A stretch of DNA of 64,000 nucleotides from an uncultured Clostridia bacterium. GTDB lineage: Bacteria; Bacillota; Clostridia; TANB77; CAG-508. Shown here in pieces: positions 28,537-36,587 of the stretch. Where the stretch lies: assembly GCA_934162255.1 (NCBI GenBank), contig CAKPIG010000002.1, positions 85,938 to 149,937 on the forward strand, in the 5' to 3' direction. The notes beneath the pieces were generated by a model. The model had not been told where the DNA came from and ran no database searches. It worked only from the letters and a program-made list of their open reading frames with translations. The position numbers and the translations under genes are program-made. Positions within the stretch are counted from its first letter, which is position 1. Each line of letters opens with the position of its first letter.

Positions 28537-30174
28537 ATGGATGTAAGAAAACGTCAACCAATAGGAATAGAACTTGTAAAAAGAGGAATAGTAAAAGAAT
28601 CAGATATAGAAAATGCTTTGCTAGAGCAAAAGAAAAATCCTAATAAAAAAATAGGAGAAATTTTAAATGAATTAAAAGTATGTGATTCACAAATATTAAT
28701 AGAAGCAATTGGAGATATAATAGGTGTAAAAGGCATGATATTAAGCCAATCACAAATAAAAATTGAAGTATTAGATTATGTTTCATTAGAAATTGTAAGA
28801 AAAAATAGAATGGTTCCATTTGAAATAGAAAATGGAAAAATAAAAGTATGTTTTGCAGATACAACAAATACAAGAAATATAGAAACAGTAAGATTATTAA
28901 TGTTAAATAAAGGCCTAATAATAGACCCATATATCACATTTGGAAGTATTATTGATGAAATAATAAGTAAATTAGGTGGTTCTGTAGATAAAGACATGTC
29001 AAGAATAGGACAAGATAATAATATAACAGAAATAGTTGATACAATAATAAAAACAGCTATGGAAAAAAGAGCAAGTGATATTCACATCGAACCATTAAGA
29101 GATGAAATAAGAATTAGATACAGAATAGATGGAGAATTGTTTACAGAAACTACACTTCCAAAATCTAAACAACCTCAAATAATAGGAAGATTAAAAGCAA
29201 TTTCTAATATGCATCAAGAAAAACAAGAATCACAAGATGGTAGAATCTTATTATATGATGATTATAATATCCGTGTATCTTCTCAAAAAAACGTATGTGG
29301 AGAAAAATTTGTATTAAGACTATTAAAAAAGAATACAAATATTAGAAATATATTTGAACTTGGATATCCAGGAACAGAACAAAGTTTAAATAAGAGTATA
29401 AACAAAAGAAATAGTATAACAGTAATTGCAGCTCCTACAGGAGAAGGAAAAACAACATCATTATATAGTTTCATTGATTATTTGAACAAACCAGAAATAA
29501 ATATAACAACAATTGAAGACCCTGTTGAAATACGTATAGATGGTCTAAACCAAATAGAAATTGATTCAAAAGCAACATTTTCAGACTCTTTAAGAACAGT
29601 ATTAAGACAAGATCCTGATATTATTCTAGTTGGAGAAATAAGAGATAAGGAAACTGCTGAAATTGCAATACAAGCAGGACAAACAGGACATTATGTATTA
29701 TCAACAATACACACAATTGATGCAATAGAAGTAATCACAAGATTAAGAAAAATAGGATTGACAGATTATGATATAGCAAGTACACTTGCAACAAGTATTT
29801 CACAAAGACTATTAAGAAAATTATGTCCACATTGTAGACATGAAAGAGAATTCACTCAAGAAGAAAGAGATATAATCGCAAGTATTGGTCAAAGATATAA
29901 TGTAGAATTTGACTTAAATGGAAAAACAACATTTGATGCAATTGGATGTGATAAATGTAATAATACAGGTTATTATGGAAGAACAGGAATATTTGAAATA
30001 CTTGATATAACAGATGATATAAAAGAACTTATAATGAAAGGTGCATCAAGTATCGAAGTAAAAAGACAAGCACTAACAGGAAGTTATAAGCCACTTTGCA
30101 TAGATGGAATTAACAAAATACTAAATGGAGTTACAAATTTAGAAGAATTAAATAGAAAAATACTATTATTTTAA
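28537..30174 (+). CDS. pilB: type IV pilus assembly ATPase PilB (GspE family)
   Basis: 545 aa. N-terminal T2SSE_N/MshEN-like domain, Walker A APTGEGKTT, the Asp box/His box region (ILVGEIRD, GH.VLST.HT) and a tetracysteine motif (CPHC...CDKC). Confidence 0.92.
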   Translation: MDVRKRQPIGIELVKRGIVKESDIENALLEQKKNPNKKIGEILNELKVCDSQILIEAIGDIIGVKGMILSQSQIKIEVLDYVSLEIVRKNRMVPFEIENGKIKVCFADTTNTRNIETVRLLMLNKGLIIDPYITFGSIIDEIISKLGGSVDKDMSRIGQDNNITEIVDTIIKTAMEKRASDIHIEPLRDEIRIRYRIDGELFTETTLPKSKQPQIIGRLKAISNMHQEKQESQDGRILLYDDYNIRVSSQKNVCGEKFVLRLLKKNTNIRNIFELGYPGTEQSLNKSINKRNSITVIAAPTGEGKTTSLYSFIDYLNKPEINITTIEDPVEIRIDGLNQIEIDSKATFSDSLRTVLRQDPDIILVGEIRDKETAEIAIQAGQTGHYVLSTIHTIDAIEVITRLRKIGLTDYDIASTLATSISQRLLRKLCPHCRHEREFTQEERDIIASIGQRYNVEFDLNGKTTFDAIGCDKCNNTGYYGRTGIFEILDITDDIKELIMKGASSIEVKRQALTGSYKPLCIDGINKILNGVTNLEELNRKILLF

Positions 30175-30194
30175 TACTAAGGGGGAAATGTCTA

Positions 30195-31301
30195 ATGGTT
30201 AATATGGACAAAATAATTGAACAAGCAATAGAAAAGGACGCATCAGATATACATTTAATGTCTGGATTAAAACCAATGTTTAGAATTACAAGAGCATTAG
30301 TGGAAGCAGAAAATACAGAAATTTTAAAAGATGAAGATATGTATGAAATATATGATTATATCGTAAAAGGAAATGTAGATAAAGATAAAGTATTTACAGA
30401 AACACGAAAATTGGATACATCTTATGAATTCAATGATATTCGTTTAAGGGTAAATATTTCATATGCAAATGAAGTTCCAATTTGTACAATGAGACTTATA
30501 AAAAATGAGCTACCAGCATATGAAGACTTAGGAGTTCCTGATATAGTAAGAAGAATGACATATCAACCACAAGGATTAATACTTGTAACAGGAAAAACAA
30601 ACTCAGGTAAATCAACAACATTAAATGCATTAGTAAATCATATAAATGAAACACAAAATAAGAAAATATTATCATTAGAAAGCCCTATAGAATATAAGCA
30701 CAAATCAAAAAATTCAATGATAGTACAAAAAGAAGTAGGACCAGGAAGAGATTGTTTGACATATCATGATGGTGTAAAAAATGCATTAAGAGAAGACTGC
30801 GATATTCTAGTAATAGGAGAGATTAGAGACAAAGTAACAATGGAAGCTGCAATAGAAATGGCAGAATCAGGACACTTAGTAATAGGTACACTTCATACAA
30901 AATCATGTGCAGAAACAATAGACAGAATGATAAACTTCTATGAAGTAAGAGACCAATCTCAAATAAAATATTTATTATCAGCATTATTAAAACTTGTAAT
31001 ATCACAAAGATTACTAGTTGGAACTTCAGGAAAACTTGAATTAGTACCAGAAGTAATGGTTGTAGATAATATAGTAGCAGGTGTTATGAGAAAAGAAAAA
31101 ATAAGTGTATCTGAAATAGAAGATGCAATTCAAAGTGGTCAAGAAAAAGGAAGTATCAGCTTAATAAACTCAATAGCACAACTATTTGTAGATAACAAAA
31201 TAACTCTAGAACAAGCAAAAATGCAAGTTGAAGAGAAAAATATTGAAACATTAAACAGAACGATTATGCAATTAAAAATAAAAAAAGGAAATAATTTTTA
31301 G
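30195..31301 (+). CDS. pilT: type IV pilus retraction ATPase PilT
   Basis: 368 aa. ASDIHL, Walker A GKTNSGKSTT, ILVIGEIRD and GHLVIGTLHT match. It lacks the N-terminal domain of PilB. Confidence 0.9.
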   Translation: MVNMDKIIEQAIEKDASDIHLMSGLKPMFRITRALVEAENTEILKDEDMYEIYDYIVKGNVDKDKVFTETRKLDTSYEFNDIRLRVNISYANEVPICTMRLIKNELPAYEDLGVPDIVRRMTYQPQGLILVTGKTNSGKSTTLNALVNHINETQNKKILSLESPIEYKHKSKNSMIVQKEVGPGRDCLTYHDGVKNALREDCDILVIGEIRDKVTMEAAIEMAESGHLVIGTLHTKSCAETIDRMINFYEVRDQSQIKYLLSALLKLVISQRLLVGTSGKLELVPEVMVVDNIVAGVMRKEKISVSEIEDAIQSGQEKGSISLINSIAQLFVDNKITLEQAKMQVEEKNIETLNRTIMQLKIKKGNNF

Positions 31302-31316
31302 GTAAGGGAGAGAACA

Positions 31317-32660
31317 ATGCCAGTATATGTATATAAAGCAGTAACAGATAAAGGTCTAATTGTAAAAAACAAGGTTGAAGAACCTAGTAAACAAGACTTG
31401 ATAAAAAAACTAAAAAACAATGATATTACACCAATTGAAATAATTCAAGTTGCATACAAGAAAAAAACAAGACAGAAAAAGAATGTTACTAATATAAAAG
31501 ACATTATAAAAGATGTAAATACAACACAATTAGATAGAAGAATGCCAGCAAAGCAAATATCAGCTATTGAAAAGCTAAACTTATATTTGGCTGCGACAGA
31601 AAAAGTAAAAACCAGAGATATAATAATTTTTACAGAAAACTTTTATTTATTAAAAAAGGCAAATTTCAATAATATTCACGCATTAAATACGATTATAAAA
31701 AGTACAGAGAATATCTCATTAAAAGGTATATTAGAAGATGTATTAGCAGGAGTAGAAGCTGGAGAGTATATGTATACAACATTGGAATATTATTCAGATG
31801 TATTTCCATTCATATATATAAATATGATAAAAGTAGGGGAATTATCAGGTTCATTAACAAATTCTTTAGGCCAAGCAGTAAAATATCTAGAAGATAATGA
31901 AAGAATAACAAAAAGGATAAAAAGTATAGTAATACCAAATATTATACAATTTGTTGTAATATTAGCATTGTTAATAGGAGGAACACTATTTGCAATACCA
32001 CAAATTCAAAACCTATTTGATGAAATAGGATCACAAGCTACATTACCAAAAATAACATTGTGGTTCCAGAGTTTTATAAATCTGGTGTTAAAATATTGGT
32101 ATATACCAGTACTCGTAATAGCTGGAGTAATAGCAGCAATATTAACATATGTTAATACACCAGTAGGAAAATATAAATACCATTATTTTAAATACACAAT
32201 GCCTGTATTTGGAAAATTAATATTCTCACTAGAATTTTCAAGATTAATGAAAGCAATGCACTTAAACCTAGAAAATGGAATGAGAATTCAAGAAGCATTA
32301 GATGTAAGTAAATCAGTAAGTAAAAACTATGTAATGTTATCAATAGTTGAAACATCAATAAACAATATGTTAACAGGTTATTCATGGATAGATCCATTTG
32401 AAAAATCAGGATTTTGCTCTCCAATGATAACAGAAATGTTAAGAATAGGAATGCAAACAGATATAACAGAAATGTTAGGAAAATTGCTAGAATACATGGA
32501 TATGGACATAAACAACACAATAAATAGAGTAATGAAAGTATTACCTGAAATTGCTTATTCAATTGTAGGTATAGTATTAATATTCTTCGTATGTGTAGTT
32601 TTAGTACCAGTAATTCAAGTATACATGGGAAACTTCTTATTCTCAGCATATGGAGTTTAA
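31317..32660 (+). CDS. pilC: type IV pilus platform protein PilC (GspF family)
   Basis: 447 aa. Shows the duplicated GspF-domain pattern with three or more TM segments. Follows pilB/pilT. Confidence 0.88.
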   Translation: MPVYVYKAVTDKGLIVKNKVEEPSKQDLIKKLKNNDITPIEIIQVAYKKKTRQKKNVTNIKDIIKDVNTTQLDRRMPAKQISAIEKLNLYLAATEKVKTRDIIIFTENFYLLKKANFNNIHALNTIIKSTENISLKGILEDVLAGVEAGEYMYTTLEYYSDVFPFIYINMIKVGELSGSLTNSLGQAVKYLEDNERITKRIKSIVIPNIIQFVVILALLIGGTLFAIPQIQNLFDEIGSQATLPKITLWFQSFINLVLKYWYIPVLVIAGVIAAILTYVNTPVGKYKYHYFKYTMPVFGKLIFSLEFSRLMKAMHLNLENGMRIQEALDVSKSVSKNYVMLSIVETSINNMLTGYSWIDPFEKSGFCSPMITEMLRIGMQTDITEMLGKLLEYMDMDINNTINRVMKVLPEIAYSIVGIVLIFFVCVVLVPVIQVYMGNFLFSAYGV

Positions 32661-35069: not shown

Positions 35070-35369
35070 ATGGCAAATATAGAAGAAATTGCAGGAGTAT
35101 ACGGAGGAGTAAAAACAGAAGAAACAGCTAGTAATATAGGTTTCGGAGAACAAAATGCTATTCCTACTACAGAAAATGCAGGAACACAATTACCAGCAAA
35201 AAGAGGATTCTGGGATAAAGTTAAAGCAGTTCTATTCTATGAAATAAAAGTTGAATTAACACCTCAACAACAAAAAGTAGAAGATGAAATAAACGAATTC
35301 TTACACCAAGAAGTTACTTGGTCAAAAGTAAAAGATTTCCTATTCCAAGAAATAACATTTGGAAAATAA
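35070..35369 (+). CDS. hypothetical protein
   Basis: 99 aa with a good RBS (aaaggagg) and its own terminator. No family recognised. Confidence 0.5.
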   Translation: MANIEEIAGVYGGVKTEETASNIGFGEQNAIPTTENAGTQLPAKRGFWDKVKAVLFYEIKVELTPQQQKVEDEINEFLHQEVTWSKVKDFLFQEITFGK

Positions 35370-35506: not shown

Positions 35507-35535
35507 TTGACAATTAATAAAAAATAGATTATACT
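35507..35535 (+). promoter_or_regulatory. sigma-A type promoter for the tRNA pair, with upstream A-tract (UP-like) region
   Basis: TTGACA (35507-35512), a 17-nt spacer, then TATACT (35530-35535). Phased A-tracts lie at 35460-35505. Confidence 0.55.
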
Positions 35536-35574: not shown

Positions 35575-35651
35575 GCTCCCATAGCTCAGTTGGTCAGAGC
35601 AACCGGCTCATAACCGGTGGGTCCTAGGTTCAAGTCCTAGTGGGAGCACCA
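35575..35651 (+). tRNA. tRNA with CAT anticodon (elongator Met or lysidine-modified Ile2; loop CTCATAA favours Ile2)
   Basis: Cloverleaf read by hand: acceptor GCTCCCA/TGGGAGC, D arm GCTC-AGTTGGTCA-GAGC, anticodon stem ACCGG/CCGGT with loop CTCATAA, T arm CTAGG-TTCAAGT-CCTAG, encoded CCA. G1-C72 pairs, so it is not an initiator. Confidence 0.9.
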
Positions 35652-35683: not shown

Positions 35684-35983
35684 GGACAGGTGGCCGAGTG
35701 GCTAAAGGCGGCAGACTGTATGCTTTGCTTGTAAAAGCAGAAATTGCAGCTCATACAAGAAATTGTATGATGAAAACTAGGCTAATTCGGGGAAGTCTTA
35801 ACAGGCTATGCTGATGATAATCCCGAGCTAGGAAGAAAATCCGAGTGTAGAGACTTTATACCTGGCATCTGAAAAGATGAAGAGAAAGTCCAGACTACAA
35901 ACCATAATGGGTAGTGAAAACTATAGTAGTAAGAAATCTGTTCTCATTTGAGTACGATGGTTCGAATCCATCCCTGTCCACCA
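35684..35983 (+). tRNA. tRNA-Tyr(GTA), class II, interrupted by a 214-nt intron in the anticodon
   Basis: The 5' exon is GGACAGGTGGCCGAGTGGCTAAAGGCGGCAGACTGT. The 3' exon is AAATCTGTTCTCATTTGAGTACGATGGTTCGAATCCATCCCTGTCCACCA. Joined, they give a canonical bacterial tRNA-Tyr with anticodon loop CTGTAAA, long variable arm CTCA-TT-TGAG, T loop TTCGAAT and encoded CCA. Confidence 0.85.
35720..35933 (+). ncRNA. group I intron (IC3-like, tRNA-type), no internal ORF
   Basis: The 5' exon ends in U (35719) and the intron ends in G (35933). The intron element GCAG (35737-35740) can pair with exon CUGU, giving the U-G wobble at the splice site. Core strings AATTCGGGGAAGTC, CCCGAGCTAGG and GTGTAGAGACT...AGTCC closely resemble my memory of the Azoarcus tRNA-Ile intron core (AAUUCGGCGAAACC, GCCGAGCCAAG, GUGUAGAGACU). 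Confidence 0.75.
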
Positions 35984-35992
35984 TATTAAAAG

Positions 35993-36031
35993 CCGTAGAA
36001 ACATTGAGATATCAATAATTCTACGGTTTTT
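35993..36031 (+). terminator. intrinsic terminator after tRNA-Tyr
   Basis: Hairpin ccgtagaa...ttctacgg followed by ttttt. A second hairpin-plus-T-tract (cctctttc-atc-gaaagagg tttctttttt) follows at 36087-36116. Confidence 0.6.
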
Positions 36032-36203
36032 ATAATGTAATTTTAATGCAACTAGATATTTTTAAAGTAAAGTAATATTTTCTTTCCCTCTTTCATCGAA
36101 AGAGGTTTCTTTTTTATAAAAATTGAAAAATATAAATACTTGTTTTTATACAAATTTTATGATATAAATAAGGAAAATTTGCAATTTTCGAATGGAGGAG
36201 ATT

Positions 36204-36587
36204 ATGATTTTTGATACCAATAAAGAAAAAGGAAATGCAGGATTAGGAATTGCTATTGCATATTATAGTGCTAATGGATATATAGTATCTATTCCATTAA
36301 ATGATACTCAAGACTATGATTTAATTGTTGATAAAAATAATAAATTAAAGAAAGTCCAAGTTAAAGCAACATCTTGTAAAACAAAATATGATAAATACCA
36401 AGTTGCGTTAAAAAGTTGCGGAGGAACAAAAGGGAAAACTTATAAAACAATAATAGATACTAATGTAGATGAAGTATTTATTATTACAGATAAAATGGAT
36501 TTATTTTTATTACCAATAGATAAAATAAAGAATAAGTCAACTATTAATTTATGTGAAAAATATAATGATTATAGAGTAAATATATAA
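36204..36587 (+). CDS. PD-(D/E)XK endonuclease-like protein (PF11645-like, the family of the tRNA-intron homing endonuclease I-Ssp6803I)
   Basis: 127 aa from the ATG at 36204 (RBS ggaggag). The pattern G..G..IA..Y....GY.VS.P......YDLIVD....L.KVQVK, followed by VDEVFIIT....FLLPIDKI, matches the family layout I remember: catalytic Asp in YDLIVD, then a (E/Q)VK motif. Confidence 0.55.
   Translation: MIFDTNKEKGNAGLGIAIAYYSANGYIVSIPLNDTQDYDLIVDKNNKLKKVQVKATSCKTKYDKYQVALKSCGGTKGKTYKTIIDTNVDEVFIITDKMDLFLLPIDKIKNKSTINLCEKYNDYRVNI

What the first reader, a model, noticed from the sequence alone, without database searches (positions are those of the whole stretch)
35684..35983. Group I intron splitting the anticodon of tRNA-Tyr(GTA)
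The two exon parts (35684-35719 and 35934-35983) join into a textbook bacterial class II tRNA-Tyr. Its anticodon stem-loop is GCAGA-CTGTAAA-TCTGT, with a long variable arm and an encoded CCA. The 214-nt insert lies between anticodon positions 35 and 36. It follows a U, ends in G, and contains GCAG (35737-35740), which can pair with exon CUGU to give the U-G wobble at the 5' splice site. Its core strings (AATTCGGGGAAGTC, CCCGAGCTAGG, GTGTAGAGACT...AGTCC, and small P8/P9-like hairpins CATC-TGAAAA-GATG and CTAC...GTAG) closely parallel my memory of the compact Azoarcus tRNA-Ile IC3 intron. The classical bacterial tRNA group I introns sit in tRNA-Leu(UAA), tRNA-fMet, tRNA-Arg(CCU) and tRNA-Ile(CAU) of cyanobacteria and proteobacteria. 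I am not aware of a described case in tRNA-Tyr or in a low-GC spore former. If this is the only tRNA-Tyr gene, self-splicing is essential for the cell.
Basis: partly seen in the sequence, partly recalled or inferred. Interest (0 to 1): 0.7.

Follow-up and report, generated by a model that had tools for sequence, protein, structure and literature searches.

The report
Self-splicing intron in tRNA-Tyr, with endonuclease
The tyrosine tRNA gene of this gut bacterium is split by a genuine self-splicing group I intron found in at least 98 bacterial species, and in about half of them a small homing-endonuclease gene sits just downstream and probably helps the intron spread.

Summary
Exons 35684-35719 and 35934-35983 join into a class II tRNA-Tyr(GTA). 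The 214-nt insert (35720-35933) is a group I intron of the bacterial tRNA (IC3-like) kind.

Standard ARAGORN and Rfam gathering thresholds miss it (RF00028 33.9 bits against a cutoff of 50). A scan of species-representative genomes found the same split in 98 species, mostly uncultured gut Clostridia/Bacilli MAGs. In 96 aligned introns the P1-P9 model holds: 97.9% of cells pair and 34 of 61 pairs show compensatory change. The exons co-vary like a working tRNA.

- The guide sequence is TTGCAG at 35744-35749, not GCAG at 35737-35740.
- tRNA-Tyr introns at this site are already catalogued as "Tyr.4Ug" (Williams, bioRxiv 2020), without experiments.

New here: ORF 36204-36587 belongs to the I-Ssp6803I family of PD-(D/E)XK homing endonucleases (PF11645).
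- It follows the intron-bearing tRNA in 41 of 82 species but only 1 of 94 intron-less loci.
- It is present or absent within one species, and is under purifying selection.
- In one Bacilli MAG a homolog lies inside the intron.

Best reading: an ORF-less intron mobilised in trans by a neighbouring free-standing endonuclease. Splicing, cleavage target and tRNA-Tyr copy number are untested.

The parts
35507..35535 (+). Sigma-70-like promoter (TTGACA, 17 nt, TATACT) upstream of the tRNA-Met / tRNA-Tyr pair
   Evidence: 11 of 12 consensus matches. A consensus match only; transcription was not shown.
35575..35651 (+). tRNA-Met(CAT), probably co-transcribed with tRNA-Tyr
   Evidence: ARAGORN and RF00005 at 73.3 bits. 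tRNA-Met lies directly upstream of the split tRNA-Tyr in 60 of 95 related loci.
35684..35719 (+). tRNA-Tyr(GTA) 5' exon, ending in C32 U33 G34 U35
   Evidence: ARAGORN on the joined exons and in intron mode. The exon is conserved in 95 loci.
35720..35933 (+). Group I intron, 214 nt, no ORF; omega-G at 35933
   Evidence: RF00028 33.9 bits, E 5.9e-7. 96-sequence alignment A1. RNAalifold consensus. Pair counts.
35716..35749 (+). P1 hairpin. Exon CUGU plus intron nt 1-2 (35716-35721) pair with the guide sequence TTGCAG (35744-35749), with the U35719-G35746 wobble at the 5' splice site. The distal P1 extension is 35727-35730 / 35735-35738.
   Evidence: The U-G, G-C and U-A pairs are invariant in 96 of 96 sequences. 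All 4 pairs of the P1 extension show compensatory changes.
35751..35770 (+). P2 hairpin (35751-35758 / 35763-35770) capped by a GNRA tetraloop (GAAA, 35759-35762)
   Evidence: All 8 pairs show compensatory changes. The loop is always GNRA in the alignment.
35777..35865 (+). P3 (35777-35781 / 35861-35865), enclosing the P4-P6 domain: P4 35786-35792 / 35821-35827; P5 35796-35797 / 35816-35817; P5a 35802-35804 / 35811-35813; P6 35831-35834 / 35839-35842
   Evidence: P3 has compensatory changes in 4 of 5 pairs. P4 is invariant and 100% paired. P5 has compensatory change in 1 of 2 pairs, P5a in 3 of 3 and P6 in 4 of 4 (coordinates).
35850..35891 (+). P7 pseudoknot (G35850, then G35852-U35855, with A35887-C35891; A35851 bulged). 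This is the inferred guanosine-binding helix. It encloses P3' and P8 (35866-35869 / 35876-35879).
   Evidence: P7 is invariant and 100% complementary in 96 sequences. P8 has compensatory changes in 2 of 4 pairs. The role of the G-C pair next to the bulged A is inferred from established group I structure.
35894..35930 (+). Three-way P9 domain: outer helix 35894-35898 / 35926-35930; P9a 35902-35904 / 35908-35910; P9b 35911-35915 / 35920-35924, with an invariant GAAA tetraloop at 35916-35919
   Evidence: Found de novo by RNAalifold. P9a has compensatory changes in 3 of 3 pairs and P9b in 4 of 5.
35934..35983 (+). tRNA-Tyr 3' exon (A36 onwards, long variable arm, T arm, acceptor, encoded CCA)
   Evidence: Across 28 distinct spliced tRNAs the acceptor stem pairs in 192 of 196 cells, with 10 stem variants.
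35993..36031 (+). Hairpin CCGTAGAA...TTCTACGG followed by a T-run, probably the terminator of the tRNA operon. A second terminator-like site lies at 36087-36115.
   Evidence: Read directly from the sequence. The second site comes from the scan. Neither was shown to function.
36204..36587 (+). Free-standing PD-(D/E)XK homing-endonuclease gene of the I-Ssp6803I family, 127 aa. GGAGGAG lies upstream of the ATG; an alternative in-frame start is at 36192.
   Evidence: PF11645 62.3 bits against a cutoff of 26.1. Best PDB match is 2OST, E 0.006 for the single sequence and 1.2e-4 for the profile. PADLOC 'HEase' E 1.5e-5. Adjacent to the intron in 41 of 82 species. Median dN/dS 0.23.

Best explanation
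This is a functional tRNA-Tyr(GTA) gene interrupted between U35 and A36 by a small ORF-less group I intron of the bacterial tRNA (IC3-like) family.

Inferred splicing pathway:
- The gene is transcribed with tRNA-Met from the promoter near 35507.
- In the precursor, anticodon-loop bases C32-U35 plus the first intron bases pair with the guide TTGCAG (35744-35749) to form P1, with the U35-G35746 wobble.
- The P3-P8 and P4-P6 domains and the P7 pseudoknot form the catalytic core, braced by GNRA tetraloops on P2 and P9b.
- Free guanosine/GTP bound in P7 attacks after U35.
- Omega-G35933 then takes its place, and the 5' exon attacks after it. This ligates the exons and restores the GUA anticodon.

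The structure is shown by comparative analysis. The chemistry is inferred from the family.

The intron itself has no mobility gene. The ORF 220 nt downstream of the tRNA (36204-36587) encodes a free-standing PD-(D/E)XK homing endonuclease of the I-Ssp6803I family. My best reading, at about 0.5 for this part, is 'collaborative' (trans) homing:
- The enzyme cuts intron-less tRNA-Tyr alleles in or near the pseudo-palindromic anticodon stem-loop.
- The intron-bearing allele is immune because the site is split.
- Repair from the donor copies both the intron and the endonuclease gene.
- Afterwards the endonuclease gene decays and is lost in many lineages.
For: Intron identity:
- ARAGORN intron call.
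- RF00028 matched over the full model, E 5.9e-7.
- Relatives with the same core pass Rfam's cutoff at 63 and 65 bits.
- 98 species carry the same split.
- RNAalifold recovers P1-P9 de novo, with 35 of 64 pairs compensatory.
- The explicit model with P7 gives 97.9% paired against 29-43% when slid, 34 of 61 pairs compensatory, and 0 of 500 shuffles as high.
- U-1 and omega-G are present in all 96 sequences.

Functional exons:
- 10 acceptor-stem variants, 192 of 196 cells paired.

Endonuclease:
- PF11645 at 62 bits; 2OST is the best PDB match.
- The D-x-D-L...K-V-Q-V-K motif is invariant.
- Median dN/dS 0.23.
- Same strand, usually about 55-80 nt and within about 170 nt after the tRNA in most of 41 of 82 intron-bearing species (a few lie farther, up to about 550 nt), against 1 of 94 intron-less loci; Fisher p 6e-16.
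- Present in L005/L006 and absent in L007, which appear to be one species.
- Truncated remnants exist.
- An ectopic copy still carries the tRNA 3'-end and terminator footprint (L340).
- Endonuclease and intron similarities are discordant, rho 0.32.
- L186 has a PF11645 ORF inside a tRNA-Tyr intron at the same site.
- Intron-less alleles exist with identical exons and the same synteny.
Against: - No RNA data and no biochemistry: splicing and cleavage are both inferred.
- RF00028 is below its gathering score for this lineage.
- P4 and P7 never vary, so covariation says nothing about them.
- L332 shows an apparently intact endonuclease gene next to an intron-less tRNA-Tyr whose 28-bp anticodon region is identical to the presumed target. 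This argues against cleavage exactly there. An inactive enzyme or a chimeric metagenome assembly would reconcile it.
- The association statistic compares two differently sampled collections and is not corrected for phylogeny.
- The structure model of the protein was too poor to use (pLDDT 49).
- The number of tRNA-Tyr genes per genome is unknown.
Confidence: 0.8

Rival explanations
1. The endonuclease is an independent free-standing homing gene that spreads on its own ('intron-less homing'). It would cut in the 3' part of tRNA-Tyr or in the downstream spacer of genomes that lack it. The intron is a separate, mostly vertically inherited element that merely hitchhikes on co-conversion because it lies about 130-190 bp away.
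For: L332 has the ORF next to an intron-less tRNA-Tyr with an unchanged anticodon region. L370 and L354 have decayed ORFs next to intron-less genes. Endonuclease and intron similarities are discordant. 36 of 82 intron-bearing species lack the ORF.
Against: The ORF is about 90 times more often next to intron-bearing than intron-less genes. The characterised family member targets the anticodon region at its own intron's insertion site (PMC3384342; title of Bonocora and Shub 2001 as cited). In L186 a family member sits inside a tRNA-Tyr intron at this same site.
Confidence: 0.3
2. The intron is now an immobile, vertically inherited passenger, and the downstream ORF is a relic or has been recruited for some other host function. 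There is no ongoing homing.
For: The 2014 review notes little evidence for horizontal movement of bacterial introns (PMC3984707). Many lineages have lost or truncated the ORF.
Against: Purifying selection on intact ORFs. Presence/absence polymorphism within what appears to be one species. Patchy intron distribution among syntenic relatives and identical exons with and without the intron. An ectopic cassette copy. The intron is 93% identical between species whose MtaB is 78% identical.
Confidence: 0.15
3. The split gene is a dead tRNA-Tyr copy disrupted by an insertion. Another intact tRNA-Tyr gene elsewhere supplies the cell.
For: Only 64 kb of this genome, and about 8 kb around each related locus, could be inspected, so a second copy cannot be excluded.
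Against: The exons remain perfect tRNAs with compensatory acceptor-stem changes across 28 distinct sequences. The insert keeps a covarying catalytic fold in 96 sequences. No second tRNA-Tyr was found in the window or in the related loci.
Confidence: 0.04

Closest known systems
Tyr.4Ug tRNA introns (Williams 2020, bioRxiv 10.1101/2020.01.27.920355; seed Mba143.Tyr.4Ug)
   Same: Same host gene and same insertion site (CUGU/intron...g/AAA), the same UUGCAG guide, U-1 and omega-G.
   Different: The published seed is only 70% identical. It has a different P3/P4 core (GAUAACGGUGAAA...AAUACCGUGG) and a simple P9. The preprint is a catalogue without experiments and says nothing about an associated endonuclease.
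[quoted passage not shown]
   Same: Same core strings. The 3' domain is nearly identical (AGTCCAGACyACAAAC...GGTAGTGAAAACTATAGTrGTAAG). The exon context is very similar (CAGACTT^AAAATCTGT against CAGACTGT^AAATCTGT).
   Different: It is inserted one loop position earlier, after U34, in a different tRNA. Leu relatives pass the Rfam cutoff at 63 bits, but this AT-rich lineage does not.
Azoarcus tRNA-Ile(CAU) intron (Ile2.5Ug)
   Same: Small size (about 200 nt). Same J3/4-P4, P7 and J8/7 strings. Two GNRA tetraloops, on P2 and P9.
   Different: 67% identity. Different insertion position and guide sequence. The Azoarcus type has a simple P9 hairpin instead of a three-way P9.
Synechocystis tRNA-fMet intron with intron-encoded I-Ssp6803I (PDB 2OST)
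   Same: A tRNA anticodon-loop group I intron paired with a PF11645 PD-(D/E)XK endonuclease. Same family by Pfam and best PDB match, with a conserved D...QVK motif. According to PMC3384342 the enzyme is a tetramer recognising a 23-bp pseudo-palindrome.
   Different: Here the gene lies outside the intron, downstream of the tRNA terminator. The host is gut Bacillota, whereas I-Ssp6803I and its close homologues were described as 'generally encoded in cyanobacteria'. Sequence identity is low (E 0.006).
Collaborative / trans homing in phages (T4 mobE with the nrdB intron, PMC2790892; cyanophage S-PM2 F-CphI with the psbA intron, the latter from my own knowledge)
   Same: An intron without a working endonuclease sits next to a free-standing homing-endonuclease gene. 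This arrangement is defined as pathway (b) in PMC3984707, Fig. 5.
   Different: Those cases are in phage protein-coding genes and use HNH or other endonuclease families. This one is chromosomal, in a tRNA gene, uses a PD-(D/E)XK enzyme and occurs in dozens of bacterial species. The trans-homing activity is inferred here, not shown.

Membership tests
Group I intron | 5' splice site after a U that forms a U-G wobble in P1 with an internal guide sequence | tested here: met
   U35719-G35746. The U-G pair is present in 96 of 96 sequences, and the flanking G-C and U-A pairs are invariant.
Group I intron | Intron ends in G (omega-G) | tested here: met
   G35933. All 95 related introns end in G.
Group I intron | Conserved core helices P3-P8 and P4-P6 with the P3/P7 pseudoknot, supported by covariation | tested here: met
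   97.9% of cells paired, 34 of 61 pairs compensatory, slid controls 29-43%. P4 and P7 are invariant, so for them only complementarity is shown.
Group I intron | Guanosine-binding G-C pair in P7 next to a bulged nucleotide | tested here: met
   G35852-C35890 next to the bulged A35851, invariant in 96 sequences. Binding itself was not tested.
Group I intron | Score at or above the Rfam RF00028 gathering threshold | tested here: not met
   33.9 bits against 50 (E 5.9e-7 in a local search). Not reported at gathering for the window or for L163, L206 and L210. The Leu and Asn relatives score 63 and 65 bits. According to Williams 2020, none of the model's seeds is bacterial.
Group I intron | GTP-dependent self-splicing | not testable with these tools
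   Needs in vitro transcription and splicing, or RNA-seq.
Bacterial tRNA (IC3-like) introns | Inserted in the anticodon loop; about 200-250 nt; no P5abc extension; GNRA tetraloops on P2 and P9 | tested here: met
   Insertion between positions 35 and 36; length 214 nt; simple P5/P5a; L2 GAAA (GNRA in all sequences) and an invariant L9b GAAA. The tetraloop-receptor contacts are inferred from Azoarcus, not tested.
Tyr.4Ug type (Williams 2020) | tRNA-Tyr split after the fourth anticodon-loop nucleotide, with U-1 and omega-G | tested here: met
   CUGU/a...g/AAA, compared with the seed Mba143.Tyr.4Ug.
PF11645 / I-Ssp6803I PD-(D/E)XK homing endonucleases | Pfam score above the gathering cutoff, with full-length similarity to I-Ssp6803I | tested here: met
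   62.3 bits against 26.1. 2OST aligned over query residues 10-122 and chain residues 4-119, E 0.006; profile E 1.2e-4.
PF11645 / I-Ssp6803I PD-(D/E)XK homing endonucleases | Catalytic D ... (E/Q)xK signature | tested here: met
   D37-Y-D39-L ... V51-Q52-V53-K54 is invariant in 30 homologs and aligns with YDL...VQVK of 2OST. Which residues are catalytic is taken from the family, not tested.
PF11645 / I-Ssp6803I PD-(D/E)XK homing endonucleases | Encoded within the group I intron it mobilises | tested here: not met
   The ORF starts 220 nt after the tRNA 3' end in the window and usually 55-80 nt after it in relatives. Only L186 has a family member inside the intron.
PF11645 / I-Ssp6803I PD-(D/E)XK homing endonucleases | Site-specific cleavage of the intron-less allele | not testable with these tools
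   Needs a cleavage assay. L332 (intact ORF next to an intron-less gene) is a warning sign.
Collaborative (trans) homing module | ORF-less intron plus an adjacent free-standing endonuclease gene, co-occurring more often than chance | tested here: met
   41 of 82 against 1 of 94, p 6e-16, not corrected for phylogeny.
Collaborative (trans) homing module | The endonuclease cuts intron-less alleles, and the intron is co-converted with it | not testable with these tools
   Only indirect signs: presence/absence polymorphism, discordant histories and an ectopic copy with a footprint.

The most novel reading that the evidence does not exclude
A chromosomal, naturally polymorphic 'collaborative homing' system. 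An ORF-less group I intron in tRNA-Tyr is kept mobile across dozens of gut Clostridia species by a free-standing I-Ssp6803I-family endonuclease gene parked just behind the tRNA. All the predicted stages of mobile-intron evolution can be seen in nature: empty site, intron only, intron plus neighbouring endonuclease, decaying endonuclease, and (L186) endonuclease captured inside the intron.
Probability: 0.45. Interest if true: 0.65.

Novelty: new variant of a known kind. Interest (0 to 1): 0.5.

Why it matters
First, annotation. This intron lineage is invisible to default tRNA finders and scores below Rfam's threshold. As a result, dozens of gut MAG species appear to lack tRNA-Tyr. That can distort completeness estimates, tRNA censuses and codon-usage inferences.

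Second, biology. If this is the only tRNA-Tyr gene, which is untested, all protein synthesis in these bacteria depends on a ribozyme.

Third, the intron-plus-neighbouring-endonuclease arrangement gives a cellular, population-level system for testing how ORF-less introns become mobile. That pathway has so far been supported mainly by a few phage cases. The system also extends the I-Ssp6803I endonuclease family well beyond cyanobacteria. The enzymes are small (127 aa) and presumably recognise a long tRNA-gene site, which could interest people who engineer nucleases.

Tried and rejected
- My first core pattern was mistyped (CNCCGAGC) and matched nothing, even in the window. It was corrected.
- The corrected core pattern was too general. 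It hit more than 120 viral contigs, mostly tRNA-Leu and other tRNA introns. ARAGORN's 'Tyr(ata)' and L126 'Tyr(gta)' calls there were misplaced boundaries, not Tyr genes.
- My first endonuclease tblastn used a frame-shifted translation (start 36205 instead of 36204) and under-counted hits: 18 against 46.
- The AlphaFold model of the endonuclease was unusable (pLDDT 48.9) because all 30 available homologs are more than 76% identical. I therefore ran no fold search and relied on sequence profiles instead.
- Zhao et al. 2007 (PMC1864971), which gives the I-Ssp6803I target site, is not held. I could not compare target sequences directly.
- I could not count tRNA-Tyr genes genome-wide, because only the regions around matches are retrievable.
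- I considered and rejected a protein-spliced (BHB-type) intron or a random insertion or pseudogene, because of the covarying group I core and the intact exons.
- I considered and rejected a defence-system role for the ORF. PADLOC's only meaningful match is its own 'homing endonuclease' model.
Full report
**1. The observation**

The sequence is as described. Joining 35684-35719 to 35934-35983 gives an 86-nt class II tRNA-Tyr(GTA) with encoded CCA. ARAGORN in intron mode calls tRNA-Tyr with a 214-nt intron in place. The insert follows U35719 and ends in G35933.

Default ARAGORN and Rfam at gathering thresholds see only the neighbouring tRNA-Met (35575-35651) and a distant tRNA-Thr. A permissive local search matches RF00028 (group I intron) end to end at 33.9 bits, E 5.9e-7, below the 50-bit gathering score. 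The precursor folds better than all 200 shuffles (z = -3.07).

**2. Context and organism**

The locus is ordinary chromosome. Upstream lie pilB, pilT, pilC, a ROK kinase, mtaB and a small unknown ORF. Then comes a strong promoter-like site (35507-35535), tRNA-Met and the split tRNA-Tyr. Downstream are a small ORF, RNase J1 and gltX.

MtaB is 100% identical to proteins from human-gut metagenome contigs. It is about 79% identical to 'Clostridium sp. CAG:356' and relatives, whose longest contigs are about 1.65 Mb. A same-species contig (L001) has the identical intron. A species with only 78% MtaB identity (L005-L007) has the same split gene, with an intron that is 93% identical.

**3. How widespread**

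The core pattern AATTCGGNGAA...CCGAGC...GTAGAGACT is common. It hit more than 120 viral contigs, about half of them inside tRNA genes of many isotypes.

Ninety-five are tRNA-Tyr(GTA) split at exactly this site by introns of 215-249 nt, all preceded by U and ending in G. Three more Tyr cases were initially miscalled: L186, L184 and L248. Most of the rest are tRNA-Asn(GTT).

The hosts are mostly gut MAGs labelled Clostridia, Clostridium sp. CAG:567/575/354, Bacilli or Erysipelotrichaceae. There are also two Gammaproteobacteria MAGs with a different intron lineage.

**4. Is it a group I intron?**

I aligned 96 distinct introns with 12 nt of each exon (A1). RNAalifold, given no model, recovered the following:
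- the tRNA anticodon stem;
- P1 (exon U33 G34 U35 plus intron nt 1-2 with UUGCA) and a distal P1 extension;
- P2, P3, P4, P5/P5a, P6 and P8;
- a three-way P9 domain.

Thirty-five of its 64 pairs showed compensatory change. I then replaced one spurious helix by the P7 pseudoknot and counted pairs:
- 97.9% of cells pair, against 29-43% when partners are slid by 1-3 columns.
- 34 of 61 pairs have changes on both sides.
- No shuffle out of 500 reaches the observed values.

P4 and P7, the catalytic core and guanosine site, are invariant and fully complementary. P2 and P9b carry GNRA tetraloops, as in the Azoarcus-type introns. Relatives with the same core pass Rfam's cutoff: a tRNA-Leu intron at 63 bits and a tRNA-Asn intron at 65 bits. 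The AT-rich Tyr lineage does not, which explains why it goes unannotated.

**5.

- The GCAG at 35737-35740 is not the guide sequence. It is the 3' strand of the variable P1 extension and changes to AUCA, ACCU and others in relatives. TTGCAG at 35744-35749 is conserved in nearly all sequences and pairs with the splice site.
- CTAC (35895-35898) pairs with the terminal GTAG, not the nearer one.
- The intron is 63-75% identical to all published tRNA-intron seed types. It is closest to Asp.4Ug and Ser.3Ug, and 67% identical to the Azoarcus type.
- Its 3' domain and exon context are strikingly like tRNA-Leu(UAA) introns.

**6. Is the tRNA functional?**

The 96 genes give 28 distinct spliced tRNAs with 10 different acceptor stems, and 192 of 196 acceptor-stem cells pair. 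The exons are therefore under selection as a tRNA.

No second tRNA-Tyr is present in the window or in the roughly 8-kb related loci. A genome-wide count was not possible, so essentiality remains open.

**7. The neighbouring ORF**

ORF 36204-36587 (127 aa, GGAGGAG upstream) is a clear member of Pfam PF11645:
- It scores 62.3 bits against a 26.1-bit cutoff.
- Its best PDB match is 2OST, which I recall from my own knowledge to be I-Ssp6803I, the PD-(D/E)XK homing endonuclease encoded in the Synechocystis tRNA-fMet intron. The match covers nearly the full length (E 0.006; profile E 1.2e-4) and shares the signature YDL...VQVK.
- PADLOC's 'homing endonuclease' model and phrog_5018 also match.
- NCBI names one homolog 'group I intron-associated PD-(D/E)XK endonuclease'.

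Across the 95 intron-bearing Tyr loci:
- 41 have a full-length homolog on the same strand, usually starting 55-80 nt after the tRNA.
- 2 have it farther away.
- 3 have truncated remnants.
- 36 with enough flank have none.

Among L005, L006 and L007, which appear to be one species, the first two have the ORF and L007 lacks it cleanly. Intact ORFs are under purifying selection, with median dN/dS 0.23.

**8. Intron-less alleles**

A metagenome scan for the spliced junction found at least 120 intron-less tRNA-Tyr genes. Some are identical to the spliced exons of intron-bearing genes, and some share the same mtaB / tRNA-Met / tRNA-Tyr synteny.

Of 94 with enough downstream sequence:
- only L332 has an intact adjacent endonuclease ORF;
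- L370 and L354 have decayed ones;
- L340 has the ORF elsewhere but still preceded by a tRNA 3'-end and terminator footprint.

The association with the intron is strong: 41 of 82 against 1 of 94, p about 6e-16, uncorrected for phylogeny and for the two sampling frames. The window's endonuclease is most similar to ORFs beside 'GGTC-type' introns, while its intron is most similar to 'ATGC-type' introns whose ORFs are more distant (rho 0.32). This suggests that the ORF recombines or moves independently.

**9. A telling relative**

In L186 (a Bacilli MAG) the tRNA-Tyr intron at the same site is 621 nt long. It carries a 143-aa ORF in its P6 loop that is also PF11645 (47 bits). That ORF is 27% identical to the window's protein (E 5e-7), and its best PDB match is again 2OST.

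The same enzyme family thus occurs inside a tRNA-Tyr intron in one lineage and just outside it in another.

**10. Mechanism**

- Shown: the architecture, its conservation and covariation, and the genetic association.
- Inferred from the family: two-step guanosine-initiated splicing that restores the GUA anticodon.
- Inferred with moderate confidence (about 0.5): trans ('collaborative') homing. The free-standing enzyme would cut intron-less tRNA-Tyr genes at the pseudo-palindromic anticodon stem-loop. The intron would protect its own allele, and both would be co-converted into recipients.

The main counter-evidence is L332. The main rival is that the endonuclease homes independently and the intron hitchhikes.

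**11. What is known**

The 2014 review lists tRNA and rRNA genes as the usual bacterial hosts, defines collaborative homing, and states that all phage introns then known were in protein-coding genes (PMC3984707).

tRNAscan-SE 2.0 notes tRNA genes missed because of group I introns, for fMet and Ile2 only (PMC8450103).

Williams 2020 raised the four classical types to 21 by a bioinformatic screen. The seed alignment includes Mba143.Tyr.4Ug. A tRNA-Tyr group I intron is therefore not new as a type.

I found no description of its association with a free-standing PD-(D/E)XK endonuclease. I-Ssp6803I relatives were described as generally cyanobacterial.

**12. Verdict**

This is a real, widespread but routinely unannotated group I intron in a functional tRNA-Tyr gene. 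The type is already catalogued. The added value is the polymorphic neighbouring homing-endonuclease gene, which makes this a new variant of known intron-plus-endonuclease systems and a good natural test bed. Interest is moderate (0.5).

Noticed in passing
L013-L132 (IMG/VR viral contigs), e.g. L029 7322-7511, L123 800-990: About half of 120 viral-contig hits to the intron core lie inside tRNA genes at the anticodon loop, in many isotypes (Leu, Arg, Phe, Lys, Met, Ser, Asn and others). The 2014 review stated that all known phage introns were in protein-coding genes. Some of these contigs may be misclassified host DNA.
   Followed up: partly
L123 1-5600: A phage-like contig carries more than 20 tRNA genes plus a tmRNA gene (RF00023, 126 bits). 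One of the tRNAs, tRNA-Asn(GTT), is split by a group I intron (RF00028, 65 bits).
   Followed up: no
L141, L180, L200, L205, L228, L229, L233 and others: Most of the non-Tyr hits are tRNA-Asn(GTT) genes split by a related intron just after the GTT anticodon. Many are in Burkholderiaceae, Lautropia, Saccharibacteria and other Patescibacteria MAGs. ARAGORN labels some of them 'tRNA-Stop(tta)' or Thr because it misplaces the boundary.
   Followed up: partly
L184 2017-2330; L248 3898-4210: Two Gammaproteobacteria MAGs have tRNA-Tyr(GTA) split at the same site by a different intron lineage. It has an extra insert after P7 (like the Phe.2Ug and Asn.4Ug seeds) and no ORF. ARAGORN miscalls them tRNA-Ser.
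   Followed up: partly
L340 11300-11800: A copy of the endonuclease ORF lies 10 kb from the contig's intron-less tRNA-Tyr. It is still preceded by ...GCACCATAAAAACAAGGAAACTTGTTTTTATTTTT, which matches the tRNA 3' end plus terminator seen at the normal site. This looks like a footprint of cassette transfer to an ectopic site.
   Followed up: partly
L332 100-720 (reverse strand): An apparently intact endonuclease ORF lies directly downstream of an intron-less tRNA-Tyr whose anticodon region is identical to that of intron-bearing genes. This is unexplained. It could be an inactive enzyme, a different cleavage site, or a chimeric assembly of mixed strains.
   Followed up: partly
window 35070-35369: A 99-aa ORF between mtaB and the tRNA promoter is conserved in the same species (L001-L004). 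It has no Pfam, NCBIfam or PADLOC match. The related species L005-L008 has an unannotated 129-aa ORF at the same position.
   Followed up: no
window 36032-36203: The spacer between the tRNA terminator and the endonuclease start is about 220 nt here, against 55-80 nt in most relatives. It contains a second terminator-like hairpin (36087-36115), so the window's copy may have its own transcription unit.
   Followed up: no
window 28537-32660: A type IV pilus gene set (pilB with an MshEN-like c-di-GMP-binding N-terminus, pilT, pilC) lies upstream of the locus. Related species instead have SpoVA sporulation genes in this neighbourhood (L005, L009).
   Followed up: no
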